Virus record (IMG/VR): IMGVR_UViG_2799113057_000001 | Reading direction: 5' to 3' (one strand) | Source: a virus | Lineage: Duplodnaviria; Heunggongvirae; Uroviricota; Caudoviricetes | DNA: 64,000 nucleotides | Shown here: piece after piece, positions 2,917 to 46,434 of the stretch | Numbering within the stretch: position 1 is the first letter of the stretch | Layout: the number at the start of each line of letters is the position of its first letter | The notes under the pieces: generated by a model | Told to the model about the DNA's origin: nothing | What the model saw: the letters and a program-made list of their open reading frames with translations, nothing else | Databases searched by the model: none | Position numbers and translations under genes: made by a program

Positions 2917-3543
2917 CTAGAACGATGCTTTCGCACCTACGGTTTTGGGTTCATCGGCTGCGGCCAGGACCAATTCGGCGAATTCAGTCAGATTGGATAC
3001 GCGCTCACCTGGCAGGTGTCTGTTGTATGGCTGGTCGTAGACAACGGCGCGGCGACCGTTCTGGCGCAGTTCCTCGATGATGTGTGGTGCGTCATCGATG
3101 TAGATCTGGCACCCGACCACGCTCTTGCGCCGCTCAAATCTCAGGTCGTCGGGCAAGATTTCGTGTTCTGTCAGCCAGTCGATGGTTTCGCGCGCGATGC
3201 GCTGCTCGTCGCGCGACTGTATGTAGCGTCCGCCGGAATGCCGGGCGGTCACGATCGATACGCGATGGCCGGCAATGCGCAAGCGCCTGATAGCCGCAGC
3301 AGCTCCGGCGTCAAGCAGCGCTAGTCTGCGCAGGCCTCCGCTGTCACGCAGCTGGGTCATTGCCTTCGACGCGGATTCATCGTCAGGAAACCAACCGGGC
3401 TCCACCAGGCCGTATTTGGTGGGTCCGCTCGCCGATCCGTCCATCGTCAGCCCCATGCTCTGGCCAACGGCGGCGACTCCAGCCATATAGTCGGCCAGCA
3501 CTCCGTCGATGTCGATCCCGATGTGTAGTGCGCTGTCAGCCAT
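2917..3543 (-). CDS. HAD-superfamily 5'(3')-deoxyribonucleotidase (NT5C-like)
   Basis: N-terminal DxDGV motif (IGIDIDGVLADY), NT5C-family architecture, about 200 aa. Confidence 0.7.
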   Translation of the reverse strand: MADSALHIGIDIDGVLADYMAGVAAVGQSMGLTMDGSASGPTKYGLVEPGWFPDDESASKAMTQLRDSGGLRRLALLDAGAAAAIRRLRIAGHRVSIVTARHSGGRYIQSRDEQRIARETIDWLTEHEILPDDLRFERRKSVVGCQIYIDDAPHIIEELRQNGRRAVVYDQPYNRHLPGERVSNLTEFAELVLAAADEPKTVGAKASF

Positions 3544-3838
3544 TGCTTTTCCTGAGGCTTTTCACTGCCTCTTGCTCGGCGACGTGCTCCCTGATCAGTT
3601 TGAGCATCTCGTCTTCAGGGGTGTTGAGCGCCTTGGCGATGCTCACCATTTCTGATACGCGGCAGGGCCGTTCACCACGCTCGATGCGGGAGTACACGCT
3701 GAGATTGAGCCCTGCGCGTCTAGCCACTTCACCTTGTTGAACCTCGCCTCGGCGGCTGCGGATTGCTGCGCCGATGGCTGAATCCGTCAGCAATAGTGGG
3801 CCGCCTGCCCTCTTGGGTGTGGCGGAGTCGGTGCGCAT
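3536..3838 (-). CDS. XRE-family helix-turn-helix transcriptional regulator (paralog 2)
   Basis: Motif LSVYSRIERGERPCRVSEMVSIAKAL is nearly identical to paralog 1. Operator copy 3 lies upstream. Confidence 0.8.
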   Translation of the reverse strand: MRTDSATPKRAGGPLLLTDSAIGAAIRSRRGEVQQGEVARRAGLNLSVYSRIERGERPCRVSEMVSIAKALNTPEDEMLKLIREHVAEQEAVKSLRKSNG

Positions 3839-3867: not shown

Positions 3868-3886
3868 TTCTCTAAAACGGAGAATA
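3868..3886. promoter_or_regulatory. Operator-like palindrome copy 3 (TTCTCTAAAACGGAGAATA)
   Basis: Between divergent XRE paralog 2 and the eccB-like gene. Confidence 0.6.
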
Positions 3887-3971: not shown

Positions 3972-5768
3972 TTGCCACCCTCCCCACGCATCGAGACCGG
4001 CCGCCAGGCCGGCTGTCTTGGCGAAGAAGGAGTTGCGGTGGCCGGGAATTCTGCCGATGGCCGACAGGCCGAGGGGCCCAAGCGTGCACGCAATCGCACC
4101 GACACAGCAGTGCCCTGGTATGTGACGACCGGTCGCCAGATCAAAGGGTACAAGCGTGAACTCAATCGCATCGACGAAGCACTGTCACGTCAGGATGTGC
4201 GCGGTGTCGGCTCGCCCCTGACTCGTCTGCGGGGGTCGCTGTCAGTGAGCCTCGTGGGCGGCGTGCTTGTTCTCGTGGCAGCCTTCATCGTCTCGCTGAT
4301 CAACCCCAAGCCCGATTCGGGCGTCGCCGCGATCATGACAACTCGTTCCGGCGGCATCTTCGTTCAGTTCAACGGCCGGCTGCACCCAGTAACCAACCTG
4401 GCTTCGGCACGCCTGATCGTCGGCAAGCCGGAGGAAGCCAAAGTGGCCACCGACGCAGCGCTGCGTTCGCTGCCCACCGGCCCGCTCATGGGTATCCCCA
4501 GCGCGCCGAATCTGTTGTCGCCCCGGACTGATGAAACAGCGGTGTGGACCGTGTGCGACTGGCGCGACACCGCTGTACCGCTCTCGCTGCTCAAGACCGG
4601 CGACATCACCACAGCTGTGATTGCCGGAGACGACATGCTCGATGGTGGAACTGATCTGGGAAGCACCCGCGCGGTGTTGGTTAAACCCGCTGGTGACCCG
4701 ACGCGTTTGTGGCTGCTGTATCGGGACACTCGGGCAGAAGTCGGTCGCGGCGACTACGCCGCCCAGGCCGCTCTGGGCCTGACACCATCGCTGATCGAAT
4801 CCGCAGTGACCGTCTCTCCCTCGCTACTCGCCACGATCGCTCCCTCGCCGGTGCTCACCGCGCCAAGGCTCATCAACCAGGGCCAGCCCAGCCCGACAGT
4901 GAACGGTTCAGCGATCGGCGATGTGCTGACAGTGACAACCGCCTCAGGGGCGCGGGCCTTTTACCTGGTCGGGTCTGGGGGAGTACAGCAAGTCAGTCCT
5001 GTTCTCGCGCAGATGATGATCAACACGGGAGCCGCGCAGAAGCTCGTCGACGACCCGGCCTCCGTGCAGGCGATGCCGCGGATCGCAATCGTGGACGATT
5101 CACGTTTCCCCGCTCAGGTGCCGACGCTGGTCAGTGAGCCCGCCCTGTGCTGGAGCTGGACCAAGACCGTCGGTGAACTCACAGCTCATACCCGGATTTT
5201 CACCAATTCGCGTATGCCAGTTACCGAGTCGGGCCGGGTGGCGGCAGTACACCTACTGCCGAACAACGGAACCACTGATCAGGCGACCGATTCAATCACC
5301 CGTCCCGGTTACGGCTGGTACGCGCGCATCACCGGCGACAGCACCGATTCAGTTGCAGCGGAGCAACTGCTGTGGATCGACCCCAACGGAACCCGATTCC
5401 CCATCGATGTAGTAATCGCGCGCAACGGCGGAGTCTCGTATGACCCAACCGTCAAAGCGCTGGGATTCGATTCGATTTCGCCGACACCGATTCCGGCGGC
5501 TGTTGCCAAGCTCTATGCCCCTGGCGCGACCTTGTCGATCAAGAACGCCCAAGTCATGCAAGGAACCATCAACCCCTCATCCCAGGTTCCGAATCCGCCT
5601 TCTACGCAGGGGCAACCGCCGCCGCCCCTGCCTTCCGAAGAAGAAGCGCAAGAACCCTCGTCCCCACAACAACCGGGCTCGCCCACCGCTGATCCCGCGG
5701 CCAATGCAAGCGGTGAGACCGCCACGCCTGTGCCCGCCGTCAACGATCCCTCAACTGCCGGTCGCTGA
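3972..5768 (+). CDS. eccB: EccB-like type VII (ESX) secretion membrane protein; true start probably downstream of 3972
   Basis: Single N-terminal TM helix. Blocks GRLHPVTNLASARLIVG and PALCWSW match EccB conserved regions. Pro-rich C-terminal tail. Confidence 0.75.
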   Translation: MPPSPRIETGRQAGCLGEEGVAVAGNSADGRQAEGPKRARNRTDTAVPWYVTTGRQIKGYKRELNRIDEALSRQDVRGVGSPLTRLRGSLSVSLVGGVLVLVAAFIVSLINPKPDSGVAAIMTTRSGGIFVQFNGRLHPVTNLASARLIVGKPEEAKVATDAALRSLPTGPLMGIPSAPNLLSPRTDETAVWTVCDWRDTAVPLSLLKTGDITTAVIAGDDMLDGGTDLGSTRAVLVKPAGDPTRLWLLYRDTRAEVGRGDYAAQAALGLTPSLIESAVTVSPSLLATIAPSPVLTAPRLINQGQPSPTVNGSAIGDVLTVTTASGARAFYLVGSGGVQQVSPVLAQMMINTGAAQKLVDDPASVQAMPRIAIVDDSRFPAQVPTLVSEPALCWSWTKTVGELTAHTRIFTNSRMPVTESGRVAAVHLLPNNGTTDQATDSITRPGYGWYARITGDSTDSVAAEQLLWIDPNGTRFPIDVVIARNGGVSYDPTVKALGFDSISPTPIPAAVAKLYAPGATLSIKNAQVMQGTINPSSQVPNPPSTQGQPPPPLPSEEEAQEPSSPQQPGSPTADPAANASGETATPVPAVNDPSTAGR

Positions 5769-5788
5769 CCGCCAAGGAAGGAACACCC

Positions 5789-8700
5789 ATGTTTACCGTT
5801 TTCCGGGCTCCGCCGCGAGAGTCAGTTCAGCTGTTGCCCACCGGTGTGCTGATCAAGGAACCGCTCGGCTTGCCCGCTCCGGACAAGCGGCCCATTTGGC
5901 TTCGCGCAATGCCTTTGATCATGGTCGCCGCGATGATCGGCATGGTGGTGATGTCACTGGTCACCGGTCAGCGCGCCATCGTCACCATGCTCTCCAGTAT
6001 GCCGCTCATGCTCATGATGCCGCTGATGTACGCCATGCAGATGCGCAACCAGGGCAGCAGCGGGGGCGACATCGACCAAGAGATAGAGGAATACGATCTC
6101 GAGCTGCGCGAGAGGCGTTTCGAGATCTACGACCAGGGCCGCGCTATGCACGACCTACGTACGATGTGCTTCCCGCATCCGGCTGACCTTCTGTCGCTGG
6201 TCGGCACTCACGAGATGTGGCAGGCCGACCGTAATCTCGACATCGGCCGGGTAGTTGCGCCAGCCGATGAATCGGACCCGGATGTCAAGAATCTGACGTC
6301 CAACCCATACCTGCGTGCCCGTGTCGGGATCGGTGTGGCGCCCTTGTATCCCAAGCTGATCCAGGCGGACGACGTCGTCCCCGAGATGCAGGAACCGGCG
6401 ACAATGGTGCGCTACGACCGCGCCATCAACACGTTGTCTGTAGTGGCAAACCTTCCGATCGATGTGCGGCTCAACGAGTTTCCTGCGTATGCGATGCGCG
6501 GTGACGAGGAAGGCAGGCTAGGGCTTGTACGGGCCATGCTTATGTCGCTGGCATTCAACCATCGGCCCAGTGATCTGAACATCGGCGTGGTGACCAACGA
6601 CCCCAAGACGTGGGAATGGGTGAAGTGGCTGCCACATACCGAAGATGTGACGCGGGTTGAAAAGGGGTTGGGCGCACGGCTGCTCACATGGCGCAGCCTC
6701 GACGAATTCGCAGCGATGCACGCGGCGCAGATCGAGCGGATGCGCAACGAGGACAGCGACGATCGCCCACCACATCTGCTACTGATCATCGATCTGCCCG
6801 ACGCGATGGTGTCATGGCCGGCGAACATCTCCGGCGGAGTCAACGGCATGACCTGGTTCGTGGTGCGCTACGGCCAAGACCTGGTCACCGATCCCGTAAA
6901 GATGAAGAGCCGCATTCTGCTCAAGGACGGCCGCGTTTCAACAGTCGACGACTACGACGCGGCCGCCGCGGACTCGGTAACGATCGCGCAAGCCGAGGTA
7001 TTCGCACGGGCCATGTACAAGTGGCGCCCACGCAACTACGGCGTCGACGGAGCCGTCGTCGACGATCGCCCCGACCACATTCCGGACTTCTTCGAAGTAC
7101 TCGAGATCGGCGATATCGAGACCCACGACTTGATCGAAGTGTGGAAGCGCAACGCCTATACCGATGAAATCAAGGTTCCGTTCGGCTACTACCGCAAGGG
7201 CGACGAACTCACCTCAGAGCTGACCTACCTGAACTTCTACGAGGAGAACCGCGACGGCAACGGCCCACACGGCGCGGTGGCCGGACGTACCGGATCGGGT
7301 AAGTCGTACTTCCTGCGCGCGATAGTGCTGGCGCTCATCGCCATGTACGGCCCGGACAAAGTCGCACTGATCCTGGCCGACTTCAAGGGCGGCGCAACGT
7401 TCCTGGGAATGGACGGGCTGCCGCATGTCGTGGCATCTATCTCCAACCTTGAGAACACGATGGAGCTGGTCGACCGGCTCGGTGCGGTGATCAACGGCGA
7501 AGTGAATCGCCGCGAGGAGTTCATCACCACCGAAAAGGGTTGCAAGGACATCTTCGACTACCGGGAGCAGCAGAAGAAGCACCCGAACGATCCAAGCTGG
7601 CCTCCGCTTCCGGACTTGATCGTCATCATCGACGAGTTCGGTGAGTTTCTCAAGGAACGTCCCGGCTACTTGGATCTGTTGATCCGCGTCGGTCGCGTTG
7701 GTCGCTCGCTGGGTATGCACCTGGTGATGTGCAGCCAGTTCATCAACAAGGACGTGATCGGTGACCTCTTTGAGCACTTGAGTTTCCGCTACTCGCTGTC
7801 GGTTAACAGCGCGAGCTATTCCATCGCGATGCTCGGCACCGACGACGCAGCGACGATGGTGGGCAAGAAAGGTGGCCTCAAGGGAAAGATCCTGCGCAAG
7901 TTCACCACTGACGCAGCTCCTGTCGAAGTGGCGGCGTTCCACCACGAGGCCCCCTACATCCGACGAACCGTGACAGAGCGTGCCCGCTCCCGGGCGGACG
8001 GCTCAGGTGTAGTTGCAGAGCCTGTAGTTCCGTTCACGCTGTTCACTACCCGGGGATTCACTCCGGAGGTCGAAGAAGACACGGTGGAGGTCACCGAGGA
8101 ACAATTCGGCGAGAAGATGGCCGACGTGCTCCTGGAGAAGGCCTCGCGACTGTCCGATATGCGCACCTTGGACCTGTGGAAGCCGTCGCTGCGCGAGCCT
8201 TTGTCGCTGCCGACGCTCAATCTGACCCGAGAGGTGAAGGGGTTGAAAATCCGCGTGGGCGACCTTGATGCCCCCGAAAAGCACACGCGACTGCCGTGGT
8301 TCATGGACTTCGGCGGGAACATCCCGCACCAGGTGATCGCCGGTGCAGGCAAGTCGGGGCGTACCACGCTGCTTCAGACACTGGTCGTGTGCGGCTGCAT
8401 TCAACACGGCCCGGAGCGTTTGGCATTCATGCTCGCCGACTACGGCACCGGCAAGCTCGGAGAGGTCAAAGACAGCCCCAATGTCGCGGCGTACGCACGA
8501 CCGGAAGACGACGAGACCACCGCGCGCATTCTCGGTGAGGCTTCACGCTTGATCGAAGTGCGACGCCGCGAGATGGTCGACCGCCAAGCGGCCTCGGTTG
8601 ACGCATATTTGGCGTCCAAGGCCAATACCCCTGTGGCAGATGACCCGTATGGGTACGTGATTGTGGCCATTGACGGCATTGGTGGATTCCTCGGTGAGAA

Positions 8701-10066
8701 GGATGACCGCGCTGTGCGTGCGCAGCTGCTGCGCCCGATCCTCGATAAGGGTGCAGCTGTGGGTGTGCACCTGGTGTACACCGCGGACTCGGGAGGGTCG
8801 GGTAACGCGGGCAACGTGACTCACTACACCGCGGAGGTCAACGGCGGTGTTCAGCTGCCGTCGACGGACTACGCCGGGGCCAAGGTTTCTTCCGAAGTGC
8901 GCTTCACCCTGAGCGAGCGCATTCCGGTGGATCAGCCTGGTCGGTCTTTGGACCCGCTGACACTGCTGCAGTGCCGCACCGCTGTTCCGATCTTCCGGGA
9001 GATCGAAGAGGACGGTTATGTCAAGGGTATGAAGGATTTCAAGATCCACGATCATGGTGAAGAGATTCGGAACCTGTGCCTGCATCTATCAGCTGAACTG
9101 GCCGAGCAGCGCGTGGTCAGGGTGCTGCCTGCAGACCCGGTGATCGACTACGAGCAGGTGTGGTCTGCCTTCGCCCCGCTCAGCGACAAGGACCGCCACC
9201 CTGTGAACACGATCATCCCGCTGGGCGTGCGGATGGACACCTTGTCCTTGGCTCCGGTTCCGAACTTCTCGCAGAACTTGTTGGTCTACAGCGAGAAGGG
9301 CGCCGGCAAGACCAACTTGCTGCGCAGCGTCATGGAGTCGGTGATGCGTCAATTCACTCCGAAGGACGCGATCATCATTGTGATCGATCCGTTGCGGCAG
9401 CACCTTGGAGAACGAGATCGTCTGTACGCGCGAGGATTCGTCAAGCCCGCCAAGTTCGGGGAAGTGGAGCGTGACGGAGCGATGGTTCGCGAGCGGATAC
9501 GTCCACCGGGATATGTCACTAGCGCCGAGGACATCGCTGACACAGCGGAGATGTTGGTCAAGCTGATGGGGTCGCGCCGTCCCACCGATGATGCGACCGC
9601 CGAGCAACTGAGCTCGCGGACGTTCTTCACCGGACCCGAGGTGTACGTGTTTGTCGACAACTTCGCCAACATGTCCAAGGGGCACTCGGCCAAGTCGGTG
9701 TTCGATGAGGTGCGATACGGCGGCGTGAGCATCAGTGAACTGCTCGCTACCGGAACGGACCTCGGCGTGCACTTCATCGTCTCGGACAGCAGCAGCGGGT
9801 TCGTGGGCAGGGTGAAGTCATCTGAGTTCCTGGTGGCGTTGCGCGAGAACATGATGGCGCCAATCCTGCAGCTGGCCAGCCCGCCGTCGTCCGGCGATCC
9901 CATCGGTCAGGCGTATCACCTCAAGCCGATGCGCTGGCGTGCCGGACAGGGGCGGATCATCGTCGACGCCGACGACTACGTGATGGTGCAGACCGCACGA
10001 ATCGACGTCGACGCGGTGGCCCGGCGATCGCAGCAAGAGCAGCAGGTGCTTCGGCAGTCGGCATAG
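5789..10066 (+). CDS. eccC: EccC-like FtsK/SpoIIIE-family type VII secretion ATPase (3 ATPase domains)
   Basis: 1425 aa. Two N-terminal TM helices. Three P-loops (GRTGSGKS, GAGKSGRTT, SEKGAGKTN) with FtsK-like Walker B regions. Confidence 0.9.
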   Translation: MFTVFRAPPRESVQLLPTGVLIKEPLGLPAPDKRPIWLRAMPLIMVAAMIGMVVMSLVTGQRAIVTMLSSMPLMLMMPLMYAMQMRNQGSSGGDIDQEIEEYDLELRERRFEIYDQGRAMHDLRTMCFPHPADLLSLVGTHEMWQADRNLDIGRVVAPADESDPDVKNLTSNPYLRARVGIGVAPLYPKLIQADDVVPEMQEPATMVRYDRAINTLSVVANLPIDVRLNEFPAYAMRGDEEGRLGLVRAMLMSLAFNHRPSDLNIGVVTNDPKTWEWVKWLPHTEDVTRVEKGLGARLLTWRSLDEFAAMHAAQIERMRNEDSDDRPPHLLLIIDLPDAMVSWPANISGGVNGMTWFVVRYGQDLVTDPVKMKSRILLKDGRVSTVDDYDAAAADSVTIAQAEVFARAMYKWRPRNYGVDGAVVDDRPDHIPDFFEVLEIGDIETHDLIEVWKRNAYTDEIKVPFGYYRKGDELTSELTYLNFYEENRDGNGPHGAVAGRTGSGKSYFLRAIVLALIAMYGPDKVALILADFKGGATFLGMDGLPHVVASISNLENTMELVDRLGAVINGEVNRREEFITTEKGCKDIFDYREQQKKHPNDPSWPPLPDLIVIIDEFGEFLKERPGYLDLLIRVGRVGRSLGMHLVMCSQFINKDVIGDLFEHLSFRYSLSVNSASYSIAMLGTDDAATMVGKKGGLKGKILRKFTTDAAPVEVAAFHHEAPYIRRTVTERARSRADGSGVVAEPVVPFTLFTTRGFTPEVEEDTVEVTEEQFGEKMADVLLEKASRLSDMRTLDLWKPSLREPLSLPTLNLTREVKGLKIRVGDLDAPEKHTRLPWFMDFGGNIPHQVIAGAGKSGRTTLLQTLVVCGCIQHGPERLAFMLADYGTGKLGEVKDSPNVAAYARPEDDETTARILGEASRLIEVRRREMVDRQAASVDAYLASKANTPVADDPYGYVIVAIDGIGGFLGEKDDRAVRAQLLRPILDKGAAVGVHLVYTADSGGSGNAGNVTHYTAEVNGGVQLPSTDYAGAKVSSEVRFTLSERIPVDQPGRSLDPLTLLQCRTAVPIFREIEEDGYVKGMKDFKIHDHGEEIRNLCLHLSAELAEQRVVRVLPADPVIDYEQVWSAFAPLSDKDRHPVNTIIPLGVRMDTLSLAPVPNFSQNLLVYSEKGAGKTNLLRSVMESVMRQFTPKDAIIIVIDPLRQHLGERDRLYARGFVKPAKFGEVERDGAMVRERIRPPGYVTSAEDIADTAEMLVKLMGSRRPTDDATAEQLSSRTFFTGPEVYVFVDNFANMSKGHSAKSVFDEVRYGGVSISELLATGTDLGVHFIVSDSSSGFVGRVKSSEFLVALRENMMAPILQLASPPSSGDPIGQAYHLKPMRWRAGQGRIIVDADDYVMVQTARIDVDAVARRSQQEQQVLRQSA

Positions 10067-10143: not shown

Positions 10144-10887
10144 CTACGGAACCGCAACGGTGAAAGGCTCGGCCCTGTCGGCTCTGAGGGTCAGTGATCC
10201 TTCGCCGACTGTGACGATTACCTGCAGAAGGGGATACGGGTCCACTGGAGCCAACCATACGGCCACCGGAAACTCTGTAGCCGCTCCCAGCGAGGACCGC
10301 GGCACCAGCACGCGGGCTGCTGCTGCGGACAAAGTCCCAGCGACTTTCACAGCCTCGTCCGGACCGGCGTGTGCCTTGGGATCGACAATTACAGGAGATG
10401 CCACGGCGGCGAGCACACTGGCGATTCCGTGTTGTGGGTCCAAGAGGGCTGCGGGGTTCAGAGTGCCCTGCGCCGGCCCGGTATCGACGAATGTGCCGTT
10501 GGCGTCCTGGATCCACAAATCCGCCTCTACAGTCTGGAACTGCGTCTGGCTGTAGTCTCCGTTGATCTTCAGCGTGGCGTTTCCCCGCGCTGCAACGGTC
10601 GGGGTGAGGGTCACGTCAGCGGCGTAGGCCTTCGCCAGCAGATCTGTAACTCCAGTACTGGAGAACATCAGGTGTGCGGACCGCATCGCCCGGGCTGTTG
10701 CTATCGCAGCATTCATCAATTGGTTCACATCAAGGTGGGTTTCGGCTCCTGCCGTCGCGGAAACATAAGCGCTGGCCGCCGTGTTCTCGCTGGGCCCCTG
10801 CTGTTGGCATCCGACGGCCAGGAGCGCGACGGCGGCGCTCAACCCGACAGCGGCTAAACGCGTAAGTGTGATTGTCATGGCGGGCAC
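10144..10887 (-). CDS. secreted lipoprotein (possibly LppX/LprAFG-like fold)
   Basis: Signal peptide plus lipobox LLAVGC, about 230 aa. Confidence 0.55.
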   Translation of the reverse strand: MPAMTITLTRLAAVGLSAAVALLAVGCQQQGPSENTAASAYVSATAGAETHLDVNQLMNAAIATARAMRSAHLMFSSTGVTDLLAKAYAADVTLTPTVAARGNATLKINGDYSQTQFQTVEADLWIQDANGTFVDTGPAQGTLNPAALLDPQHGIASVLAAVASPVIVDPKAHAGPDEAVKVAGTLSAAAARVLVPRSSLGAATEFPVAVWLAPVDPYPLLQVIVTVGEGSLTLRADRAEPFTVAVP

Positions 10888-10934: not shown

Positions 10935-11708
10935 TCAGCAGGCGCCGTAGAACTGCTGCATGGTGGCTTTCTCGGCAGCCGTCACTGTCAGCCGGTACTT
11001 GTTCTTCACCATCACTTGGCGCTTGACGTACGTGCAGTCGAAAGCTGTGTTCTCCGGCAGCCACTGATCGGCCGATTTCTCGCCCTTGCTCTCGTTTGAA
11101 GATCCGTTGACGGCAAGCAGATTCAGTGGATCGTTCGCGATCTTCTTGAGTTCGGACAAGTCCCAGGTCGCTGCGCCGGAGACCCAAACGTTCGCCAAAC
11201 TCACCAGATGATCGATCTGTACCAGTGCGGATGTCTTCTTGCCGTAGACGAATGAAATGACCTGTCCGGTGTACGGGTCGGCAAGTGTTCCGGACATGAC
11301 TTTGCATGAGCCGGAAAGGGTTATGCCGGTGAGGTCGCGCTGCAAAATATCGTCCCGGGTACTGCAGCCGTTGTGCCCACCTTCGATGTCGACGTCATCT
11401 GTCCACGGTTGTCCGAATCGTGCTCGGGCGTATCCATTTTTGGATCCGGGCGCAGCGACGGTCAGTGTCGATGGATCAGGACTGGGAGTTCCGGTACCGC
11501 TTATCGTCGATGCGCTCGGTGGCGCTCCTTCATCGCGTTGTTCCTGGCCGGTGATTTTGCTGAGCTCCGACGATATCCGGTTGTCCTTGCCGAACAAGGT
11601 GCCGTTCACGATCAGCACCACAATGACCGCCACGGCGGCCAGCGCGAATAGCTGTAGGAGCTGACTCAGCAGCTTGTCGTTTTCGGGTGGAGATTTCAGC
11701 GAGCTCAT
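10935..11708 (-). CDS. membrane-anchored DUF1524/GmrSD-C-like HNH nuclease
   Basis: N-terminal TM anchor. Motifs GHNGCSTRDDILQRDL and QIDHLVSLANVW match the DUF1524 HNH-like family. Confidence 0.55.
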   Translation of the reverse strand: MSSLKSPPENDKLLSQLLQLFALAAVAVIVVLIVNGTLFGKDNRISSELSKITGQEQRDEGAPPSASTISGTGTPSPDPSTLTVAAPGSKNGYARARFGQPWTDDVDIEGGHNGCSTRDDILQRDLTGITLSGSCKVMSGTLADPYTGQVISFVYGKKTSALVQIDHLVSLANVWVSGAATWDLSELKKIANDPLNLLAVNGSSNESKGEKSADQWLPENTAFDCTYVKRQVMVKNKYRLTVTAAEKATMQQFYGAC

Positions 11709-12326
11709 GGTGGCGCAGTGTGCGGCGGAACCCGGAAACGGATCGCACGCGACACGACAGTGGCCGCGTCGCTATCCATGTCATGTCCCCGATTCATGGT
11801 CTTCGTGCGCCGGGCCGCAGCCGGGAGGTTTCGTATCGTCGCATTGAGCACGCAGCTGAGCGATGTAAAGACGGGGCGGACATCTGAGCGGCGCCCCTGC
11901 AGAAACGCGAAACTCCTTTCAGCCGTGCCGGTTTAGTGCGTATCGCAACATTGACTGCGTCTTTGATCCAGGTTTTGACAGGGCTTCTGAGCGAAGCGCT
12001 GATCGACTAGCTGAGCGCAGGTGTGAGCGTGACATTGAGCGAATCCGGGGAAGCGCCAGTTTGTGCGTACGCACGCGCGTTGGAGACACATACAACGCCC
12101 GAATCCGTACTGGATCTGACGTGCTGTTGAAACTGTCAGTGCGGGCGATTGATAGAGGCACATTGAGCGATGCGTGATCGCGGATGTGCTCTCGGTCATT
12201 TTCCGAGGACGCGCCGCTGTGTGGCTCGCCGGTCGATCAGTCCTAGATTGCGGCTCGCTTCATCACTGGCCAGTACATCGTGTGGATCTCCAGGCGCTGT
12301 TCGATCAAGGGAAAGGGCGACGGGAC

Positions 12327-13118
12327 ATGACCGTTGTTATCGACAACCAGCTTTTCGTTCAAGGGCTCTCGGCGGCCAAGGTAATGGCGTACGCAGGCAA
12401 CGATGACCCCACGCATGCCGCCGTCGTACTGGGCTCCACGCGAGTCGAGACCGGCGAAGTCGGGACGCAGAACAGTTTGGCGTTCATCTCCTCGGACGGG
12501 AACAGTCCGGGGCAGGCGATCTTCGGCTGTGACGGAACGCTGCCTCTGGTGAAGTTCTCGACCGATCAGGCTTCCCAGTTGCTGTCGGCAGCCAAGAATG
12601 CGGCGTCGGCCGTCAAGAAGGTCGACAAGGAATCCCAGTGTGATGTCGAGTTGTCGGTCGTCGACAACGGCTCCACGCTACTCATGCGCACACTCACCGA
12701 CGGAGCCCCGGGAGAAGCCGACTCGCGGCACTACATCCCGTTGCAAGACGTCGACGACTTCCCGATCGCATCGACGATCTCTCGACTGTCGGCCCGCGGC
12801 GCCAAGGAAATTCTGAGCACGCGCGGTCTTGGTGACGACCAGACGACGGCACCGCTGAAGGTCGGCAAGGTTCAGGCGTTCGGCTCGGACGTGATCAAGA
12901 AGATGAGCGCCATCGCCGCGGTGTTCAAGGAACCTGTCGAGCTTTACACCCGTGAGCATCCCGCATCGATCGTCACGCTCACATGCGCCGGCGTCTTTCG
13001 AGCCGTGCTGTCGGCACACACCTACCACCCGGATCTGGACGTTGATGATCCGGAAGTGCCCGTCGCCGTTTCGCTCGGAGGAGACGAGGATGACGACGAG
13101 GGCCACGATGCCGCATGA
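12327..13118 (+). CDS. hypothetical protein
   Basis: Internal ATG with the upstream purine-rich stretch GGGAAAGGGCGACGGG. Acidic C-terminal tail. Confidence 0.45.
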   Translation: MTVVIDNQLFVQGLSAAKVMAYAGNDDPTHAAVVLGSTRVETGEVGTQNSLAFISSDGNSPGQAIFGCDGTLPLVKFSTDQASQLLSAAKNAASAVKKVDKESQCDVELSVVDNGSTLLMRTLTDGAPGEADSRHYIPLQDVDDFPIASTISRLSARGAKEILSTRGLGDDQTTAPLKVGKVQAFGSDVIKKMSAIAAVFKEPVELYTREHPASIVTLTCAGVFRAVLSAHTYHPDLDVDDPEVPVAVSLGGDEDDDEGHDAA

Positions 13119-13164
13119 TCAGGGTTGAATGTGTCGTCACGCCCCCAGGTCGAAGGAGGATCAG

Positions 13165-13611
13165 GTGAGCTTCACTGTTGAGACCGGCGACCTGTTCGTC
13201 CACCCCGCGGAGGCACTAGCTCATGGAGTGAACTGCCAAGGTGTCGCGGGGGCGGGTGTGGCCGCGATCATGAAACAGCGCTATCCAAACGCGATCTATC
13301 AGTACGAGGTGATCGCGCGGCGCGGCGACCTGCCGGCGGGCGGCGCCATGATCTGCTCCGGTGGCCCGGGCGACCGACCCATCATCCACTGCGCCAGCCA
13401 GTACTACCCAGGCCCCGACGCCCGCGAGGAGTGGGTGCGATCGTCGGTGGCCGTGGGCCTGAGTCTCGCCGTCGAGCACGGGATCGGTTCTGTCGCGCTC
13501 CCACTGATCGGCGGTGGTATCGGCGGACTCGATCCAGCAGTGGCCGAGCAGATTATTCGGGAAGTCGCAGAGGCTTCGCCGGTCGCTGTGACGCTGGTTC
13601 TGTTCGGCTGA
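13165..13611 (+). CDS. Macro domain protein (ADP-ribose binding/processing)
   Basis: Motifs HGVNCQGVAGAGVAAI, IHCASQYYPG and ALPLIGGGIGGL. GTG start after the RBS GAAGGAGGA. Confidence 0.75.
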   Translation: MSFTVETGDLFVHPAEALAHGVNCQGVAGAGVAAIMKQRYPNAIYQYEVIARRGDLPAGGAMICSGGPGDRPIIHCASQYYPGPDAREEWVRSSVAVGLSLAVEHGIGSVALPLIGGGIGGLDPAVAEQIIREVAEASPVAVTLVLFG

Positions 13612-13620
13612 ACACCTGAG

Positions 13621-13663
13621 CCCTACACCACTTACGTACAAAATGTACGAAAGTGGTGTAGGG
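13621..13663. other. Perfect 13-bp stem hairpin with a palindromic loop, 8 nt upstream of the next start codon
   Basis: CCCTACACCACTT-(ACGTACAAAATGTACGA)-AAGTGGTGTAGGG. Confidence 0.45.
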
Positions 13664-13671
13664 TCTCTGGT

Positions 13672-35639: not shown

Positions 35640-35689
35640 GGTGGATATCTCCTTGGGTGGTGGGTGAATCAGTTGAGTGGAAACGGGCC

Positions 35690-41207: not shown

Positions 41208-41507
41208 TTACTGCCCGGTCATCTTGCCGCCGGCGATGCTGTGGTCGTAACCGATCGTCTCGTTGATGGCGTCCTGCGTCGAGGTCCGGCAATGTTCGAC
41301 GACACTGTGAACGCTGGTGATCGCCGAGTTCTGCTCACGCGAGAAGTCGGTGGCGGTGTCCATGCCGACGCCCTTAACGGAGCCCGCAAGCTGCTGGTAT
41401 GCCTGAAGCTGCCGGCCCGCGGCTTCGTCGAGGATCTTCAGATCCGTGTCGAGCTTGTGGACGTCGCCCTGGGCTCCGGGGATGTCGAGGTGAAGTTGCT
41501 TGGTCAT
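41208..41507 (-). CDS. WXG100 (EsxB/EsxA-like) family protein
   Basis: 99 aa, helical hairpin composition. Followed by a second small helical protein in the same operon. Confidence 0.65.
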   Translation of the reverse strand: MTKQLHLDIPGAQGDVHKLDTDLKILDEAAGRQLQAYQQLAGSVKGVGMDTATDFSREQNSAITSVHSVVEHCRTSTQDAINETIGYDHSIAGGKMTGQ

Positions 41508-41545
41508 GGTTTAGGTCCTTTCCTGAGTCGGTTGTCCGAGACCGA

Positions 41546-41854
41546 TTACGCTCGCTGTACCGCTTGGGCGCCGCTGGCCTGGCGCTCCAGCTGGACCCGG
41601 ATCACTTCACGCGTGCCGGCTACAGCGGCGTCCGCCCGGTTAAGGACCTTCAGCAGCTGGGGGCTGGACTCACTCTCAAACTTGCCCTGGAACGCGTCCA
41701 TGGTGTCCGAGATGTAGCTGTGGGCCTGTAGATCGCCAATGGTGTTGCCGATCCGTCCCAGTGCCTGGCGCATAGTGTCGGTGTCGTTCTGCAGGTTGTC
41801 GCAGATCTTGAGTGCGTCTTCGGGAGCGATCGCAACGCTGCCGCTTGTACCCAT
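41546..41854 (-). CDS. WXG100-like small helical protein
   Basis: 102 aa from the internal Met with RBS GGAGAAA. Confidence 0.55.
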   Translation of the reverse strand: MGTSGSVAIAPEDALKICDNLQNDTDTMRQALGRIGNTIGDLQAHSYISDTMDAFQGKFESESSPQLLKVLNRADAAVAGTREVIRVQLERQASGAQAVQRA

Positions 41855-41917
41855 GTTTTCTCCGATGGTCGTAGCCGATGGGTGATTCCAAGGCAGATGG
41901 TAGCGCAAAAATCCGCG

Positions 41918-43288
41918 CTAAGCCCCTCTGAAGGCATTGCTGAGCGCATCGATGCCGTTTTTGATGCCGTCTACGTTGCCGGATTTGAACGTGATGCGTT
42001 TGAACATGCCCGAGCCGCTTGGGTATGAGGCGATAATTCCCCGGCCCCGCATGAAGGCCAAGGCCAGAGCGCCGGGTTCGCCTCGTGACACATCGACATC
42101 ACTTGTGCTGACCGTCACTGTCGCCAGCGCGTGGGTTGTGCACCCCGCGATTTCCGCAATTGCTGCCTGAGCTCCTGCGGGCGTCTTGGCTGCTTTCAGT
42201 ACGTTGCGGGCTGCCTTGCGTGCACGCTCACGTACCGCATCAGCTTCGGCACGAGTCTTCTCGTCAGCGTCCGGCTCGAGTTCGCTGTCGAAGAGTTTCG
42301 AGGCATCCGAGTCCGAATGGAGTTGATCGACCACAGCCCCCGGCAGGACGATCGGGGTCTTGAGCGGGTAGGCCGGCCATTGGCCTTCAGGGTCCAAGAG
42401 GTCAAGAACAGCAGCCGCGGCGTCGGCGCTGGCTCCGTCGCGGCGCAATCGGCGGCTGAACACCACGGTGGTGTTGTTGATCAGCGCTGAGACCACTTCG
42501 CGCTTGCCCACGCCGATCACGAAAGTCACACGGGGAACATCACGTACCGCGGCCTGAACGCCGTACGGTTTCAATTCGGCAGGAACCTCTACAGGCGCCC
42601 GTCGCTGTGCGTAGAGAAGCACCGTGCAGTACACAGTCAGTTCGGCGTGACCTGTCACTGCGTCGAACATCTGCTTAGCCTCGTCGGTCAAGTGGCCGTG
42701 TTCGTCGAGGGCCTGCCACGCCGTGAGGTCGTGACTAATCTGCGCCTCTGAGGTGGATAGATGCGGAAAAGTCGGCCCCAGCTCGATCGGGATCTGGCGC
42801 ACCATCGACTTGGCAGCCAGCCAATGCCAATGGGAGACCGTGAAGTACGGTGACGTCTCGGTCACCGGTGTGACGGTGTTGTCAGCAGTGAGCCAGCTGT
42901 TGATGGTGCGATAGTGGCCGTCAGCTGGGGCCTTGTCACGTCCCGGAACCAGCGCACGCATCGCAGCGCGCATGGCGTCGGAGACTTTGATGGTGCCGTC
43001 AGGGTTCATGCGAATATCGGCCCCGGCAGACTCGGCGATCGGCGCCATTTCTGGATAGGCGGTCAAGGCCGCCTGGATGCGCGCTTGAACCGTGTCTTTG
43101 GGCTTATCCGCCTCGGTGGGCCGAGCCTGGCCGTCTTCGTTTGTGTCCTGGGCGGATTCACCACGACTGTCTCCGAACTCCGACAGCGGTGGATCTTGCT
43201 GTGCTAGCGCATCTGACGTGGGTGGCTGTTCGTCGGTTGTCGTGCTCGCTCCGGATTCGAGGATCGCCTGAAGTTGCTCATTGATCAC
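41918..43288 (-). CDS. hypothetical protein (ESX-associated?)
   Basis: 456-aa ORF. Disordered acidic N-terminus and structured C-terminus. Confidence 0.5.
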   Translation of the reverse strand: MINEQLQAILESGASTTTDEQPPTSDALAQQDPPLSEFGDSRGESAQDTNEDGQARPTEADKPKDTVQARIQAALTAYPEMAPIAESAGADIRMNPDGTIKVSDAMRAAMRALVPGRDKAPADGHYRTINSWLTADNTVTPVTETSPYFTVSHWHWLAAKSMVRQIPIELGPTFPHLSTSEAQISHDLTAWQALDEHGHLTDEAKQMFDAVTGHAELTVYCTVLLYAQRRAPVEVPAELKPYGVQAAVRDVPRVTFVIGVGKREVVSALINNTTVVFSRRLRRDGASADAAAAVLDLLDPEGQWPAYPLKTPIVLPGAVVDQLHSDSDASKLFDSELEPDADEKTRAEADAVRERARKAARNVLKAAKTPAGAQAAIAEIAGCTTHALATVTVSTSDVDVSRGEPGALALAFMRGRGIIASYPSGSGMFKRITFKSGNVDGIKNGIDALSNAFRGA

Positions 43289-45606: not shown

Positions 45607-46434
45607 TCAGTAGCCGACGCCGTGGCCGACGCCGCGCGCCATGAAGGTGACCAAACCGGTGCCGGTGTGCAGATCAACGTGGTAGCGCACGGCGATGTAG
45701 CGCCATGCCGCGGCGATATTGGCCACCGGGTCGTAGATGAACGTGGAGGTGCCTGGGGCATGATTGGCTGCGAAAGTCCCTGGGACAGTCTGCATGAGGC
45801 CGCGCGAGCTTCCAGCTGGTGCGCCGTCAGGCTGCCGGGCGCCCCAGGCGTTGGAATCTCCGCGGTTCACGGCGTTGGTTGCGCCGCCGGATTCCCCGCC
45901 CATGATCGTGCGTGTGGCGGTGTCGAATTGCCCAAATAGCCGTGGGTTTACGCCGGCGGCCTGCAACCCGGCCGAGATGTCCGCATCGGTGACATGGGGG
46001 ACAGGGTGTGCGGTGTAGATGATCTTGGACTTATCGATCGCGGCTGCCTCGGTGACAGGCCTGGTCGAAGCAACCGGCACGAGCACCAGGGGACGTGACG
46101 GAGCAGCGCCGGGTATCGGTTCCTCTACCGTGATCGATTCTTCGTCGCGTGCTGCATCCTCGACTGACGGTGCTTCGTCGACAGGTTCGGCGGCGGCCTC
46201 TTCGTCTGTCGCCTCGATGACCGGCTCAGGCGCTGACTCTTCGTCGACGAGATGGTGCTCGACAATCGGTTCGGTTGCCTGTTCGGTGCCGCAATCCGGC
46301 ATATCGCAGGTGATTGTCGCCACATCTGAAGTCGGATCCGATGCGGGGTCAGCATGCGCGACGCCGCCTCCGATCGCAGCGATTGCCGCCGCGGCGACTA
46401 TCGCCGACAGAACTGGACGCTTACCTGTGGACAT
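45607..46434 (-). CDS. secreted lytic transglycosylase (SLT domain)
   Basis: Signal peptide. C-terminal SSRGLMQTVPGTF...YDPVANIAAAWRYI matches the SLT catalytic region. Confidence 0.7.
   Translation of the reverse strand: MSTGKRPVLSAIVAAAAIAAIGGGVAHADPASDPTSDVATITCDMPDCGTEQATEPIVEHHLVDEESAPEPVIEATDEEAAAEPVDEAPSVEDAARDEESITVEEPIPGAAPSRPLVLVPVASTRPVTEAAAIDKSKIIYTAHPVPHVTDADISAGLQAAGVNPRLFGQFDTATRTIMGGESGGATNAVNRGDSNAWGARQPDGAPAGSSRGLMQTVPGTFAANHAPGTSTFIYDPVANIAAAWRYIAVRYHVDLHTGTGLVTFMARGVGHGVGY

What the first reader, a model, noticed from the sequence alone, without database searches (positions are those of the whole stretch)
3972..10066. ESX/type VII secretion core genes (EccB + three-domain EccC) on a mobile element, first operon after an operator
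A clear EccB homolog and a 1425-aa EccC with three FtsK-type P-loops sit divergent from XRE paralog 2 across an operator copy. No EccD-like 11-TM channel, EccE or subtilisin-type mycosin is visible anywhere in the 64 kb. The likely substrates (a WXG100 pair) lie 31 kb away. The locus is embedded among phage/plasmid-type functions. This may be a minimal or re-purposed T7SS, for conjugation-like DNA transfer, effector export, or phage-related envelope crossing.
Basis: partly seen in the sequence, partly recalled or inferred. Interest (0 to 1): 0.8.

Follow-up and report, generated by a model that had tools for sequence, protein, structure and literature searches.

The report
Two-gene EccB–EccC secretion core, mobile island
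A roughly 100-kb mobile island in the chromosome of the pathogen Mycobacteroides abscessus carries only two of the five core genes of a type VII secretion system (EccB and EccC), and this stripped-down pair is conserved and under strong selection in three genera, so it probably works in a way that differs from every characterised type VII machine.

Summary
4038-5768 (not 3972) encodes a full-length EccB, which passes the NCBIfam equivalog cut-off. 5789-10066 encodes a 1425-aa EccC with two N-terminal TM helices and three P-loop domains. No EccD, EccE or mycosin was found in the 64 kb by Pfam, tblastn or a six-frame TM scan.

The host is M. abscessus. The window lies inside a chromosomally integrated element of at least 97 kb, with a ~36-tRNA array just upstream of the window. 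I explored it from -30 to +67 kb and found no further ecc genes. A colinear integrated element of at least 143 kb in Tsukamurella also has none. The same XRE | eccB-eccC | LppX | nuclease block occurs in three Mycolicibacterium species.

The nearest relatives are the complete ESX-P5 loci of giant tRNA-array plasmids (EccB ~39%, EccC ~31% identity). This is therefore a reduced derivative of a plasmid conjugation-type T7SS. eccC is under purifying selection (dN/dS 0.05-0.2).

A conserved distant module holds two divergent WXG100-like proteins, two large unknown proteins, an SLT lytic transglycosylase and an S1 protease. An FtsK-domain/EccA-like AAA+ fusion is also present.

Best reading: a working minimal T7SS that serves the element's own secretion or transfer. 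It is a new variant of a known kind, and its function is inferred, not shown.

The parts
3536..3838 (-). XRE-family HTH regulator, divergent from eccB. It is conserved in this position in all relatives.
   Evidence: Pfam HTH_31/HTH_3. tblastn orthologs next to eccB in Tsukamurella, M. lutetiense, M. canariasense and M. syngnathidarum.
3868..3884 (.). Palindromic operator-like site TTCTCTAAAACGGAGAA in the XRE/eccB intergenic region. Other copies are at 391, 2829, 19331, 27034, 55739, 59703 and 63552.
   Evidence: 8 sites in the window against 0.6 expected from shuffles. All lie just upstream of gene starts. The site is present in all M. abscessus copies and a few Mycolicibacterium loci.
4038..5768 (+). 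eccB: 576 aa, one TM helix, full-length EccB periplasmic domain.
   Evidence: Pfam 9e-94. TIGR03919 297 bits, above its cut-off. RBS AAGGAG before GTG 4038. 63-73% identical to orthologs, 38-39% to ESX-P5 EccB and 28% to ESX-P1 EccB.
5789..10066 (+). eccC: 1425 aa, unsplit, 2 TM helices plus three FtsK/SpoIIIE-type NTPase domains.
   Evidence: TIGR03924 525 bits, above its cut-off; TIGR03925 312 bits. P-loops aligned to canonical EccCs. Walker A/B of D1 invariant in 15 clade members. dN/dS 0.05-0.21.
10144..10887 (-). LppX_LprAFG-family lipoprotein, convergent on eccC. It is a conserved neighbour.
   Evidence: Pfam 2e-24. Same position in Tsukamurella, M. lutetiense and M. syngnathidarum.
10935..11708 (-). 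Membrane-anchored GmrSD_C/DUF1524 (HNH-type) nuclease-like protein. It is a conserved neighbour.
   Evidence: Pfam GmrSD_C 9e-13. N-terminal TM helix. 57-70% identical orthologs in the same position.
12174..13118 (+). Conserved protein of unknown function, the most conserved neighbour of the block.
   Evidence: No Pfam hit. 62-82% identical orthologs in the same position in four other species.
41208..41507 (-). 99-aa two-helix protein, a candidate WXG100-like substrate (partner A).
   Evidence: AF2 model shows helix 12-46, a turn, then helix 49-90, mean pLDDT 70. 37% identical ortholog in the same module in Tsukamurella. No Pfam WXG100 hit. Fold searches were uninformative.
41546..41854 (-). 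~102-aa protein, a candidate divergent WXG100-like substrate (partner B). The longest ORF runs to 41908.
   Evidence: Small family, only 7 representatives in 1.8 billion proteins. The family profile hits B. anthracis EsxB at E=0.004. 2 of 8 members hit Pfam WXG100 at 7e-5.
41918..43288 (-). 456-aa conserved protein of unknown function in the substrate/hydrolase module.
   Evidence: No Pfam, NCBIfam, PHROG or PDB hit. 47% identical ortholog, syntenic in Tsukamurella.
43336..45570 (-). 744-aa conserved protein with a helical N-terminus, an Ala/Pro/Gln-rich linker and a Pro-rich C-terminus. Candidate large secreted protein.
   Evidence: No family hit. 42% identical ortholog, syntenic in Tsukamurella. 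A similarly built 681-aa protein sits in a second module at about -24 kb.
45607..46434 (-). Secreted lytic transglycosylase (SLT domain).
   Evidence: Pfam SLT 9e-5. N-terminal hydrophobic segment. 62% identical to the Tsukamurella ortholog and 42% (over 86 aa) to the SLT next to the ESX-P5 cluster of pCBMA213_1.
46632..47465 (+). Secreted S1 (trypsin-type, Rv1815-like) serine protease. It is not a mycosin.
   Evidence: NCBIfam Rv1815_serprot 1.6e-10, below its cut-off. Annotated 'S1 family peptidase' in the Tsukamurella ortholog, 48% identical. A paralog lies at about -20 kb.
53475..55535 (-). Soluble fusion protein: an FtsK/EccC-D1-like domain (Walker A GRTGSGRS) joined to an EccA/CbbX-type AAA+ domain.
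   Evidence: Pfam FtsK_SpoIIIE 2e-18, AAA 8e-15 and AAA_lid_6. TIGR03922 EccA C-terminal half 172 bits; TIGR03924 132 bits. Ortholog in Tsukamurella.
61917..63326 (-). 469-aa protein with a weak FtsK/EccCb-like P-loop (GGAGRGKS). Possibly a transfer ATPase.
   Evidence: Pfam FtsK_SpoIIIE 2e-4. TIGR03925 2e-4. 40% identical to part of a 1145-aa Tsukamurella protein that in turn weakly matches the ESX-P5 VirB4-like protein.

Best explanation
The locus is a genuine but strongly diverged eccB-eccC operon. It is the membrane and ATPase core of an actinobacterial type VII secretion system, and it has been kept without EccD, EccE and mycosin.

It sits on a chromosomally integrated mobile island of Mycobacteroides abscessus, roughly 100 kb (at least 97 kb). 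The island also carries a ~36-tRNA array, its own replication genes and NAD-salvage genes. The pair descends from the ESX-P5-type T7SS/T4SS transfer clusters of giant mycobacterial tRNA-array plasmids.

Inferred mechanism, not shown:
- EccC hexamers, anchored by their two TM helices and braced by the single-pass EccB with its periplasmic domain, form a reduced translocon.
- The translocon is powered by the intact D1 ATPase.
- It may be assisted by the island's soluble FtsK-domain/EccA-like AAA+ protein.
- It exports the island's own divergent WXG100-like pair and the large proteins encoded with them. These act alongside a lytic transglycosylase and an S1 protease on the cell envelope.
- By analogy with ESX-P1 of pRAW, the purpose would be cell-to-cell transfer or establishment of the island.
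- Expression is probably tied to the island's XRE repressor through a 17-bp palindrome that marks at least eight promoters.
For: Identity: HMM hits above curated cut-offs; three aligned P-loops and two TM helices.

Functionality: dN/dS for eccC is 0.05-0.06 among M. abscessus variants (dS 0.07-0.12) and 0.17-0.21 against Mycolicibacterium. For eccB it is 0.12. Walker A and B of D1 and the D2 P-loop are invariant across 15 clade members.

Two-gene architecture conserved: XRE | eccB-eccC | LppX | GmrSD_C | g13 (the conserved unknown protein at 12174-13118) recurs in M. abscessus variants, M. lutetiense, M. canariasense and M. syngnathidarum, and Tsukamurella. LppX was not detected in M. canariasense.

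No EccD, MycP, EccE, VirB4-like or TcpC in the window, in -30 to +67 kb of the M. abscessus island, or in >=143 kb of the colinear Tsukamurella island.

Origin: the closest outgroup is ESX-P5 of pS2b and pCBMA213_1, with EccB 38-39% and EccC ~31% identical. There the genes lie in eccA-eccB-eccC-...-virB4-like-...-eccD-mycP-eccE clusters with an SLT gene nearby.

Substrate module: colinear and conserved in Tsukamurella. There is weak WXG100 affinity and a two-helix model. A second, similarly composed module lies at -20 to -27 kb.

Integration: the locus is inside the complete chromosome CP062133.1, with a junction to chromosomal genes. A tyrosine integrase sits at the end of the Tsukamurella element.

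Regulation: 8 palindromes against 0.6 expected.

Precedent: T7SS genes are required for transfer of pRAW (Ummels 2014, as cited in PMC12803027 and PMC5966550).
Against: - No secretion, assembly or transfer data exist.
- In all solved ESX complexes EccD is the scaffold (established knowledge), so an EccB-EccC-only complex is unprecedented and may not assemble alone.
- The left end of the M. abscessus island was not reached: nothing beyond about -30 kb was seen. The Tsukamurella contig ends on the same side. Further ecc genes could hide there.
- The WXG100 assignment is weak (E=0.004; no WXG motif), and the substrate module is 31 kb from eccBC.
- No relaxase, VirB4 or TcpC was found, so conjugative ability is itself unproven.
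- eccC is annotated as two overlapping CDSs in the Tsukamurella record. This is either a frameshift or a sequencing error.
Confidence: 0.5

Rival explanations
1. Host-dependent hybrid machine. The island supplies only the substrate-selecting ATPase (EccC) and EccB. These insert into the host's chromosomal ESX-3 or ESX-4 scaffold (EccD, MycP and, in M. abscessus ESX-4, EccE), redirecting a resident secretion system to island-encoded substrates.
For: The missing parts are exactly the scaffold and the protease, while the recognition and energy parts are kept. M. abscessus has chromosomal ESX-3 and ESX-4 (PMC12995706, read). The pair is under strong selection even though it is 'incomplete'.
Against: EccB and EccC here are only ~25-29% identical to non-P5 ESX homologs. 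Paralogous ESX systems are not known to exchange core subunits (established knowledge). The same pair is kept in three genera with different resident ESX sets.
Confidence: 0.15
2. DNA-transfer pore. EccC acts as an FtsK/TraB-like motor that moves the excised island as double-stranded DNA into a recipient. EccB, the membrane-anchored nuclease and the wall hydrolases would be accessory parts, and no protein substrate would be involved.
For: EccC is an FtsK/SpoIIIE-family protein. No relaxase or VirB4 was found. The pS2b authors raise the same idea for relaxase-less giant plasmids (PMC12803027). A TM-anchored GmrSD_C nuclease is a conserved neighbour. There are extra FtsK-like proteins at 53475-55535 and 61917-63326.
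Against: The sequence matches the EccC models, not FtsK or TraB: TraB NF041214 scores 15 bits and FtsK 28 bits, against 525 bits for EccCa. EccC-type ATPases are protein translocases in every characterised case (established knowledge). WXG100-like candidates are conserved on the island.
Confidence: 0.12
3. An ordinary, complete ESX locus that is merely dispersed. eccD, mycP and eccE would lie in the part of the island that could not be read (beyond about -30 kb).
For: The left end of the island was not reached in M. abscessus. The Tsukamurella contig ends on the same side. The substrate module is already 31 kb away, which shows that the system is dispersed.
Against: None was found in ~97 kb of the M. 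abscessus island or >=143 kb of the Tsukamurella island. In all known ESX and ESX-P loci, including the nearest relatives, eccD, mycP and eccE lie within ~15 kb of eccB and eccC.
Confidence: 0.08
4. Phage-related function. The island would be a large prophage, with EccB and EccC helping virion or DNA passage through the mycobacterial envelope, or exporting prophage toxins.
For: The island has phage-like cargo: a tRNA array, a DNA polymerase A gene, a prim-pol, HNH genes, an NAD-salvage cluster and a PHROG hit.
Against: No capsid, portal, terminase or tail gene was found in ~97 kb here or in 143 kb of the PGAP-annotated relative. There was no nucleotide match to 50,697 phage records. The only 'phage' with EccB is an UNVERIFIED_ORG record with an ESX-plasmid-like gene set, not verified gene by gene.
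Confidence: 0.05
5. A decaying remnant of an ESX-P5 cluster with no present function.
For: Most of the ancestral cluster is gone. eccC is split in the Tsukamurella record.
Against: dN/dS is 0.05-0.2. The 1425-codon frame is intact in dozens of M. abscessus assemblies and in three Mycolicibacterium species. The catalytic motifs are invariant.
Confidence: 0.03

Closest known systems
ESX-P5 T7SS/T4SS cluster of giant tRNA-array plasmids (pS2b of M. avium, pCBMA213_1; PMC12803027)
   Same: It has the closest EccB (38-39% identity) and EccC (~31%). An SLT hydrolase is associated with it. The replicon carries a tRNA array, no relaxase was found, and the cargo includes helicases and similar genes.
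   Different: ESX-P5 has eccA, eccD, mycP, eccE, a VirB4-like gene and a TcpC-like gene in one cluster on an extrachromosomal linear plasmid. Here only eccB and eccC remain, the EccA-type AAA+ domain is fused to an FtsK-like domain elsewhere, and the element is integrated in the chromosome.
ESX-P1 of pRAW-type conjugative plasmids (e.g. pFLAC0070_2, 'phage' Adler)
   Same: It is a T7SS carried by a mobile element. In pRAW the T7SS is needed for plasmid transfer (Ummels 2014).
   Different: ESX-P1 has a complete ecc set plus PE/PPE, EspG and a MOBF relaxase. EccB is only 28% and EccC 25% identical to the proteins here.
Chromosomal ESX-4, the smallest classical actinobacterial T7SS
   Same: It is a reduced gene set around EccB and EccC with a WXG100 pair. 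Canonical chromosomal actinobacterial EccCs, some of them annotated EccC4, are ~28% identical.
   Different: ESX-4 always keeps EccD and MycP. Here both are absent.
T7SSb of Firmicutes (EssC with EsaA/EssA/EssB)
   Same: It is a precedent that an EccC/EssC-type ATPase can work without EccD, EccE and MycP. EssC model TIGR03928 matches at 314 bits.
   Different: T7SSb has no EccB and uses other membrane partners. None of those was detected here.
TraB-type (FtsK-like) dsDNA transfer of actinomycete integrative and conjugative elements
   Same: It is an integrated actinobacterial element with FtsK-family ATPases and no relaxase.
   Different: The TraB model matches only at noise level, 15-23 bits against a cut-off of 800. 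The ATPase here is a three-domain EccC paired with EccB.

Membership tests
Actinobacterial type VII secretion system (T7SSa/ESX) | EccB membrane protein | tested here: met
   TIGR03919 equivalog 297 bits against a cut-off of 154. The Pfam hit is full length.
Actinobacterial type VII secretion system (T7SSa/ESX) | EccC: 2 TM helices plus three FtsK/SpoIIIE NTPase domains | tested here: met
   TIGR03924 525 bits against a cut-off of 509. TIGR03925 312 bits, slightly below its cut-off of 346. Three aligned P-loops.
Actinobacterial type VII secretion system (T7SSa/ESX) | EccD polytopic (11-TM) scaffold protein | tested here: not met
   No Pfam hit and no tblastn hit with two EccDs. No polytopic ORF in six frames. 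None in the flanks or in the Tsukamurella island.
Actinobacterial type VII secretion system (T7SSa/ESX) | Mycosin (subtilisin-type MycP) | tested here: not met
   No Peptidase_S8 or MycP hit. Only S1-type proteases are present.
Actinobacterial type VII secretion system (T7SSa/ESX) | EccE (absent from some ESX-4 loci, so not universal) | tested here: not met
   No hit.
Actinobacterial type VII secretion system (T7SSa/ESX) | WXG100 substrate pair | tested here: inconclusive
   Two adjacent ~100-aa helical proteins with no WXG motif and no direct Pfam hit. The family profile hits EsxB at E=0.004, and 2 of 8 members hit PF06013.
Actinobacterial type VII secretion system (T7SSa/ESX) | Protein secretion dependent on the system | not testable with these tools
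   Needs a secretome comparison of wild type and an eccC mutant.
ESX-P5-type T7SS/T4SS hybrid transfer cluster | VirB4-like ATPase and TcpC/VirB8-like protein next to the ecc genes | tested here: not met
   tblastn with the pCBMA213_1 and pFLAC0070_2 proteins gave no hit in the window or its flanks. The only hit is a weak 73-aa match in Tsukamurella.
ESX-P5-type T7SS/T4SS hybrid transfer cluster | EccB and EccC closest to ESX-P5 sequences | tested here: met
   38-39% (EccB) and ~31% (EccC) identity, against 25-29% to other ESX types. No formal tree was built.
Integrative mobile element (ICE/AICE-like island) | Chromosomal integration with defined ends and a recombinase | tested here: inconclusive
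   The locus lies inside the complete chromosome CP062133.1, and the right junction with chromosomal genes was seen. An HTH_17 Xis-like gene sits at that end. A tyrosine integrase is at the corresponding end in Tsukamurella. In M. abscessus only a 152-aa weak integrase fragment was seen, and the left end was not reached.
Integrative mobile element (ICE/AICE-like island) | Relaxase or TraB-type DNA translocase | tested here: not met
   No relaxase domain. TraB NF041214 matches only at 15-23 bits against a cut-off of 800.
Tailed prophage | Capsid, portal, terminase and tail genes | tested here: not met
   None by Pfam across the window or by PHROGs on ten selected proteins. None annotated in 143 kb of the relative. 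No megablast match to phages.
Mycobacterial tRNA array unit elements (Choo 2014; Morgado & Vicente 2018) | Dense array of about 30 or more tRNA genes on the same element | tested here: met
   34-36 tRNAs within ~9 kb, starting about 0.9 kb upstream of the window.

The most novel reading that the evidence does not exclude
EccB and EccC alone form a self-sufficient, two-component type VII translocon, a natural 'minimal T7SS'. It would serve as the secretion or mating apparatus of a previously uncharacterised family of ~100-150-kb integrative tRNA-array islands found in Mycobacteroides, Mycolicibacterium and Tsukamurella. If so, EccD, EccE and MycP are not intrinsically required for type VII transport.
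Probability: 0.35. Interest if true: 0.75.

Novelty: new variant of a known kind. Interest (0 to 1): 0.6.

Why it matters
Structural and genetic work on ESX systems treats EccB, EccC, EccD (usually with EccE) and MycP as the obligatory core, with EccD as the scaffold. A lineage that has kept only EccB and EccC, under strong purifying selection and across three genera, is a natural experiment on which parts are truly needed for type VII transport. It offers a much simpler complex for biochemistry and cryo-EM.

The locus also sits on a common, clinically relevant island of M. abscessus. Its tRNA 'island' has been noted since 2012-2014, but its mobility and biology are undescribed in the literature I could search. 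Surveys that define an ESX locus by eccB with eccD or eccA, or by at least four core genes, would have skipped this locus by design (PMC12803027, PMC7478629). If the pair supports transfer of the island, it bears on how M. abscessus acquires large blocks of accessory DNA.

Tried and rejected
1. Single-protein scans of genome contigs and viral contigs for EccC found no relative. The alignment-based genome scan was swamped by canonical Streptomyces EccCs and added only two clade members.

2. Megablast of the locus and of 26-50 kb against plasmids and phages gave essentially nothing. The element is in neither collection.

3. The Tsukamurella 'plasmid' hit turned out to be a chromosomal contig with an integrated element. 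It was useful, but not as a plasmid.

4. The exact-sequence look-up of the protein at 61917-63326 failed, probably because of a different start codon.

5. Walking left with the last two homology searches reached only about -30 kb. The left end was not found.

7. PDB sequence searches and PHROG scans of the 456-aa and 744-aa proteins found nothing.

8. The promoter and terminator scan of 3.5-12.3 kb was no better than shuffles.

9. A 500-codon ORF with five 'hydrophobic segments' at 34488-35987(-) was checked as a possible EccD and rejected. It is an Ala/Pro/Val-rich E3-binding-domain protein.

10. 'Phage Adler' was examined as a possible phage-borne EccB-EccC pair and rejected. It is an UNVERIFIED_ORG circular record with an ESX-plasmid-like gene set.

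Full report
**1. What is at the coordinates**

The two long + strand ORFs are real genes.
- The first ORF matches Pfam T7SS_ESX1_EccB over essentially the whole profile (E=9e-94). It also matches the NCBIfam equivalog TIGR03919 at 297 bits against a cut-off of 154.
- The longest-ORF start, TTG 3972, is probably wrong. GTG 4038 is preceded by AAGGAG at the right spacing, and every public gene call gives a 576-aa product.
- The second ORF (5789-10066, 1425 aa) passes the EccCa model (525 bits against 509). It falls just short of the EccCb model (312 bits against 346).
- It has two N-terminal hydrophobic helices.
- Aligned with canonical EccCs, it has three P-loops at the expected places: GRTGSGKS, GAGKSGRT and SEKGAGKT.

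**2. The regulator and the 'operator'**

- An XRE-type HTH gene (3536-3838, minus strand) is divergent from eccB.
- Between them lies the palindrome TTCTCTAAAACGGAGAA (3868-3884).
- The same 17-mer family occurs eight times in the window, against 0.6 expected from shuffles.
- Each copy sits a few to about 60 nucleotides upstream of a gene start. One copy precedes the other XRE paralog at 93-368.
- At this locus the site is 30 nt from the XRE start and 154 nt from eccB.
- Autoregulation of the XRE gene is the more direct inference. Control of eccB and eccC is plausible but not shown.

**3. What is missing**

- Pfam scans of the called proteins of the window gave no YukD/EccD, EccE or subtilisin hit. 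A few very small or spurious ORFs were not scanned.
- tblastn used EccD, MycP, EccE, EspG, VirB4-like and TcpC taken from a canonical ESX-P1 plasmid (L015) and an ESX-P5 plasmid (L016). It gave no hit in the window.
- Hydrophobicity scans of the called genes and of all six frames found no polytopic protein. The exceptions are a 234-aa four-TM protein and a false positive that is an Ala/Pro/Val-rich E3-binding-domain protein.
- One T7SS-related part was not noted under this finding. The gene at 53475-55535(-) encodes an FtsK/EccC-D1-like domain fused to an EccA/CbbX-type AAA+ domain.

**4. Where the window comes from**

- EccC is 99-100% identical to proteins of Mycobacteroides abscessus.
- The locus lies inside the complete chromosome CP062133.1 (5.18 Mb).
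- About 3 kb past the window's right end, after an RNase H-like gene and an HTH_17 (Xis-like) gene, ordinary chromosomal genes begin.
- Immediately left of the window lies an array of 34-36 tRNA genes. This is the 'tRNA island' reported for M. abscessus M24 and others (PMC3920477) and surveyed by Morgado and Vicente (PMC5966550).
That stretch holds regulators, unknown ORFs, an acetyltransferase and a second module: S1 peptidase, a 447-aa protein, a 681-aa protein, NlpC/P60 and two ~115-aa proteins. There are no ecc genes.
- The island is therefore at least 97 kb. Its left end was not reached.
- No nucleotide match exists in the plasmid or phage collections.

**5. Relatives**

- EccC homologs fall into a tight clade of 54-99% identity in Mycobacteroides and Mycolicibacterium, with 36 clusters at 90% identity. 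There is then a gap down to about 32% and lower.
- A 60%-identical copy lies in a Tsukamurella tyrosinosolvens record labelled as a plasmid.
- That record is really a chromosomal contig carrying cobN, uvrA, icd and katG. It holds an integrated element that starts at a tyrosine integrase and runs at least 143 kb to the contig end.
- That element is colinear with the window. 37 of the 73 ORFs called in the window have tblastn matches in conserved order. These include EccB (65%), EccC (60%), the LppX-type lipoprotein, the GmrSD_C nuclease, DNA polymerase, helicases, WhiA, the two small proteins, the 456-aa and 744-aa proteins, SLT, the S1 protease, the FtsK-AAA fusion and the SPFH protein.
- Its PGAP annotation contains eccB but no eccD, mycP or eccE, and tblastn agrees.
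- The block XRE | eccB-eccC | LppX | GmrSD_C | conserved unknown | Macro is also present in M. lutetiense, M. canariasense and M. syngnathidarum. LppX was not detected in M. canariasense. No other ecc gene lies within 10 kb.

**6. Origin**

- The nearest proteins outside the clade are the EccB (38-39%) and EccC (~31%) of ESX-P5-type clusters. These sit on giant plasmids that also carry tRNA arrays, such as pS2b of M. avium and pCBMA213_1 (PMC12803027).
- There the genes lie in the order eccA-eccB-eccC-(two small genes)-virB4-like-...-eccD-mycP-eccE. A TcpC-like gene and an SLT gene lie upstream.
- Identity to ESX-P1 and to chromosomal ESX types is 25-29%.
- The simplest history is a reduction of an ESX-P5-like transfer cluster in an element that became integrative. 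I did not build a formal tree.

**7. Is it functional?**

- eccC shows dN/dS of 0.05-0.06 between M. abscessus variants, which differ by dS 0.07-0.12. Against Mycolicibacterium orthologs it is 0.17-0.21. For eccB it is 0.12.
- In an alignment of 15 clade members the D1 Walker A and Walker B residues and the D2 P-loop are invariant.
- This excludes a decaying remnant.

**8. Candidate substrates**

- The 41546-41854 protein belongs to a very small family, with only 7 representatives in 1.8 billion proteins.
- A profile of that family has Bacillus anthracis EsxB structures as its best PDB hits (E=0.004-0.015). Two of its eight members hit Pfam WXG100 (best E=7e-5).
- An AF2 model of the partner protein is a helix-turn-helix of the right size at moderate confidence. 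Fold searches could not discriminate.
- 'Divergent WXG100-like' is a fair label; 'WXG100' is not proven.
- The pair is embedded in a module conserved in order in Tsukamurella. A loosely similar second module lies in the left part of the island.

**9. Mechanism**

Shown:
- the gene identities;
- the conserved two-gene architecture;
- selection on both genes;
- chromosomal integration;
- the repeated palindrome;
- kinship to ESX-P5.

Inferred:
- EccC and EccB form a reduced translocon on their own.
- They export the WXG100-like pair and the associated large proteins.
- This activity, together with SLT and the S1 protease, serves spread or establishment of the island. The analogy is the T7SS requirement for pRAW transfer.

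Rivals:
- use of the host's EccD and MycP scaffold;
- a DNA-pumping role for EccC;
- hidden ecc genes in the unread left end;
- a phage-linked role;
- a decaying remnant with no present function.

The evidence for and against each is given in the rival-explanations section. No phage structural gene was seen anywhere. The only 'phage' record with an EccB homolog is an UNVERIFIED_ORG circular record carrying EccB- and EccC-like genes, an EccA-like ATPase and several unannotated ~500-aa genes where the rest of an ESX set would lie.

**10. Novelty**

- The papers I could search describe the tRNA arrays, the complete ESX-P loci of plasmids and an ICE with two full ESX systems.
- I found none that describes an EccB-EccC-only locus or this island's gene content.
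- Two published ESX surveys require eccB with eccD or eccA, or at least four core genes. They would miss this locus by design.
- I rate it a new variant of a known kind, with moderate to high interest.
- The main caveats are the unread left end of the island and the complete lack of functional data.

Noticed in passing
L006-L009 11200-19800 (about 0.9 to 10 kb upstream of window position 1); variants in L107-L110: There is a dense array of 34-36 tRNA genes covering nearly all amino acids, interspersed with HNH genes. Some strains have an RtcB RNA ligase inside it. This is the known M. abscessus 'tRNA island', and it is here shown to be part of the same integrated element as eccB and eccC.
   Followed up: partly
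window 391, 2829, 3868, 19331, 27034, 55739, 59703, 63552: A 17-bp palindrome, TTCTCTAAAAYRGAGAA, occurs 8 times against 0.6 expected. Each copy is 10-60 nt upstream of a start codon. It is probably the operator of an island-wide XRE regulon, or a promoter element. It is conserved in all M. abscessus copies and present in a few Mycolicibacterium loci.
   Followed up: partly
window 13129-17187: A cluster of Macro domain, PRPP-synthetase-like (Pribosyltran), RyR-domain (seen in public gene calls), NAMPT and NUDIX genes. This is an NAD+/ADP-ribose salvage set of the kind large phages use against NAD-depleting defence. In some strains NAMPT is split, or an extra FtsK-like gene is inserted.
   Followed up: no
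window 37166-39961 (+): This family-A DNA polymerase is 931 aa, against 641 aa for the Tsukamurella ortholog. The extra ~290 aa (about residues 440-690) start with Cys and look like an intein. No Pfam intein hit was obtained.
   Followed up: no
window 27073-28026 (-) and 29926-30957 (-): There are two WhiA paralogs on the island, next to an SF2 helicase. Tsukamurella has one. WhiA is normally a chromosomal sporulation and cell-division regulator.
   Followed up: no
window 53475-55535 (-): A soluble fusion of an EccC-D1-like FtsK domain (Walker A Lys replaced by Arg) with an EccA/CbbX-type AAA+ module. A related, larger fusion (P0037, 1010 aa) exists in M. conceptionense, and the Tsukamurella ortholog is annotated as a 1006-aa FtsK/SpoIIIE domain protein.
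   Followed up: partly
L112 10001-17582 (about -20 to -27 kb from the window): A second module: S1 peptidase, a 447-aa Pro/Ala/Gln-rich protein, a 681-aa protein, NlpC/P60 and two ~115-aa helical proteins. It mirrors the module at window 41208-47465 in composition, but sequence similarity is shared only by the proteases.
   Followed up: partly
L005 13500-20900: In one M. abscessus assembly a mercury-resistance block (MerR, MerA-like reductase, MerB) together with IS21-type genes (IstA/IstB) has inserted into the LppX-type lipoprotein gene next to eccC.
   Followed up: no
NZ_LR134455.1 (L018-L023, L010): The Tsukamurella tyrosinosolvens record 'plasmid 13' in PLSDB carries housekeeping genes (cobN, lnt, rbpA, uvrA, icd, katG). 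It is most likely a chromosomal contig with an integrated island of at least 143 kb. The island has a tmRNA gene near the contig end.
   Followed up: yes
KC960489.1 / KF981876.1 (L114): 'Mycobacterium phage Adler' (UNVERIFIED_ORG, 95.7 kb, circular) encodes an EccB-like protein, a 1405-aa EccC, an EccA-like ATPase and several ~500-aa proteins in ESX order. It looks like a pRAW-type ESX plasmid, not a phage.
   Followed up: partly
window 40051-40173: A short (41 aa) tblastn match to a PPE protein (E~1e-4) in the gap between the DNA polymerase and prim-pol genes. It is possibly a gene fragment or a chance match.
   Followed up: no
window 34488-35642 (-): An Ala/Pro/Val-rich protein with a peripheral-subunit (E3) binding domain. 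It is conserved in Tsukamurella. It lies in a locally GC-rich (66%) stretch where simple ORF calling picks spurious opposite-strand frames.
   Followed up: partly
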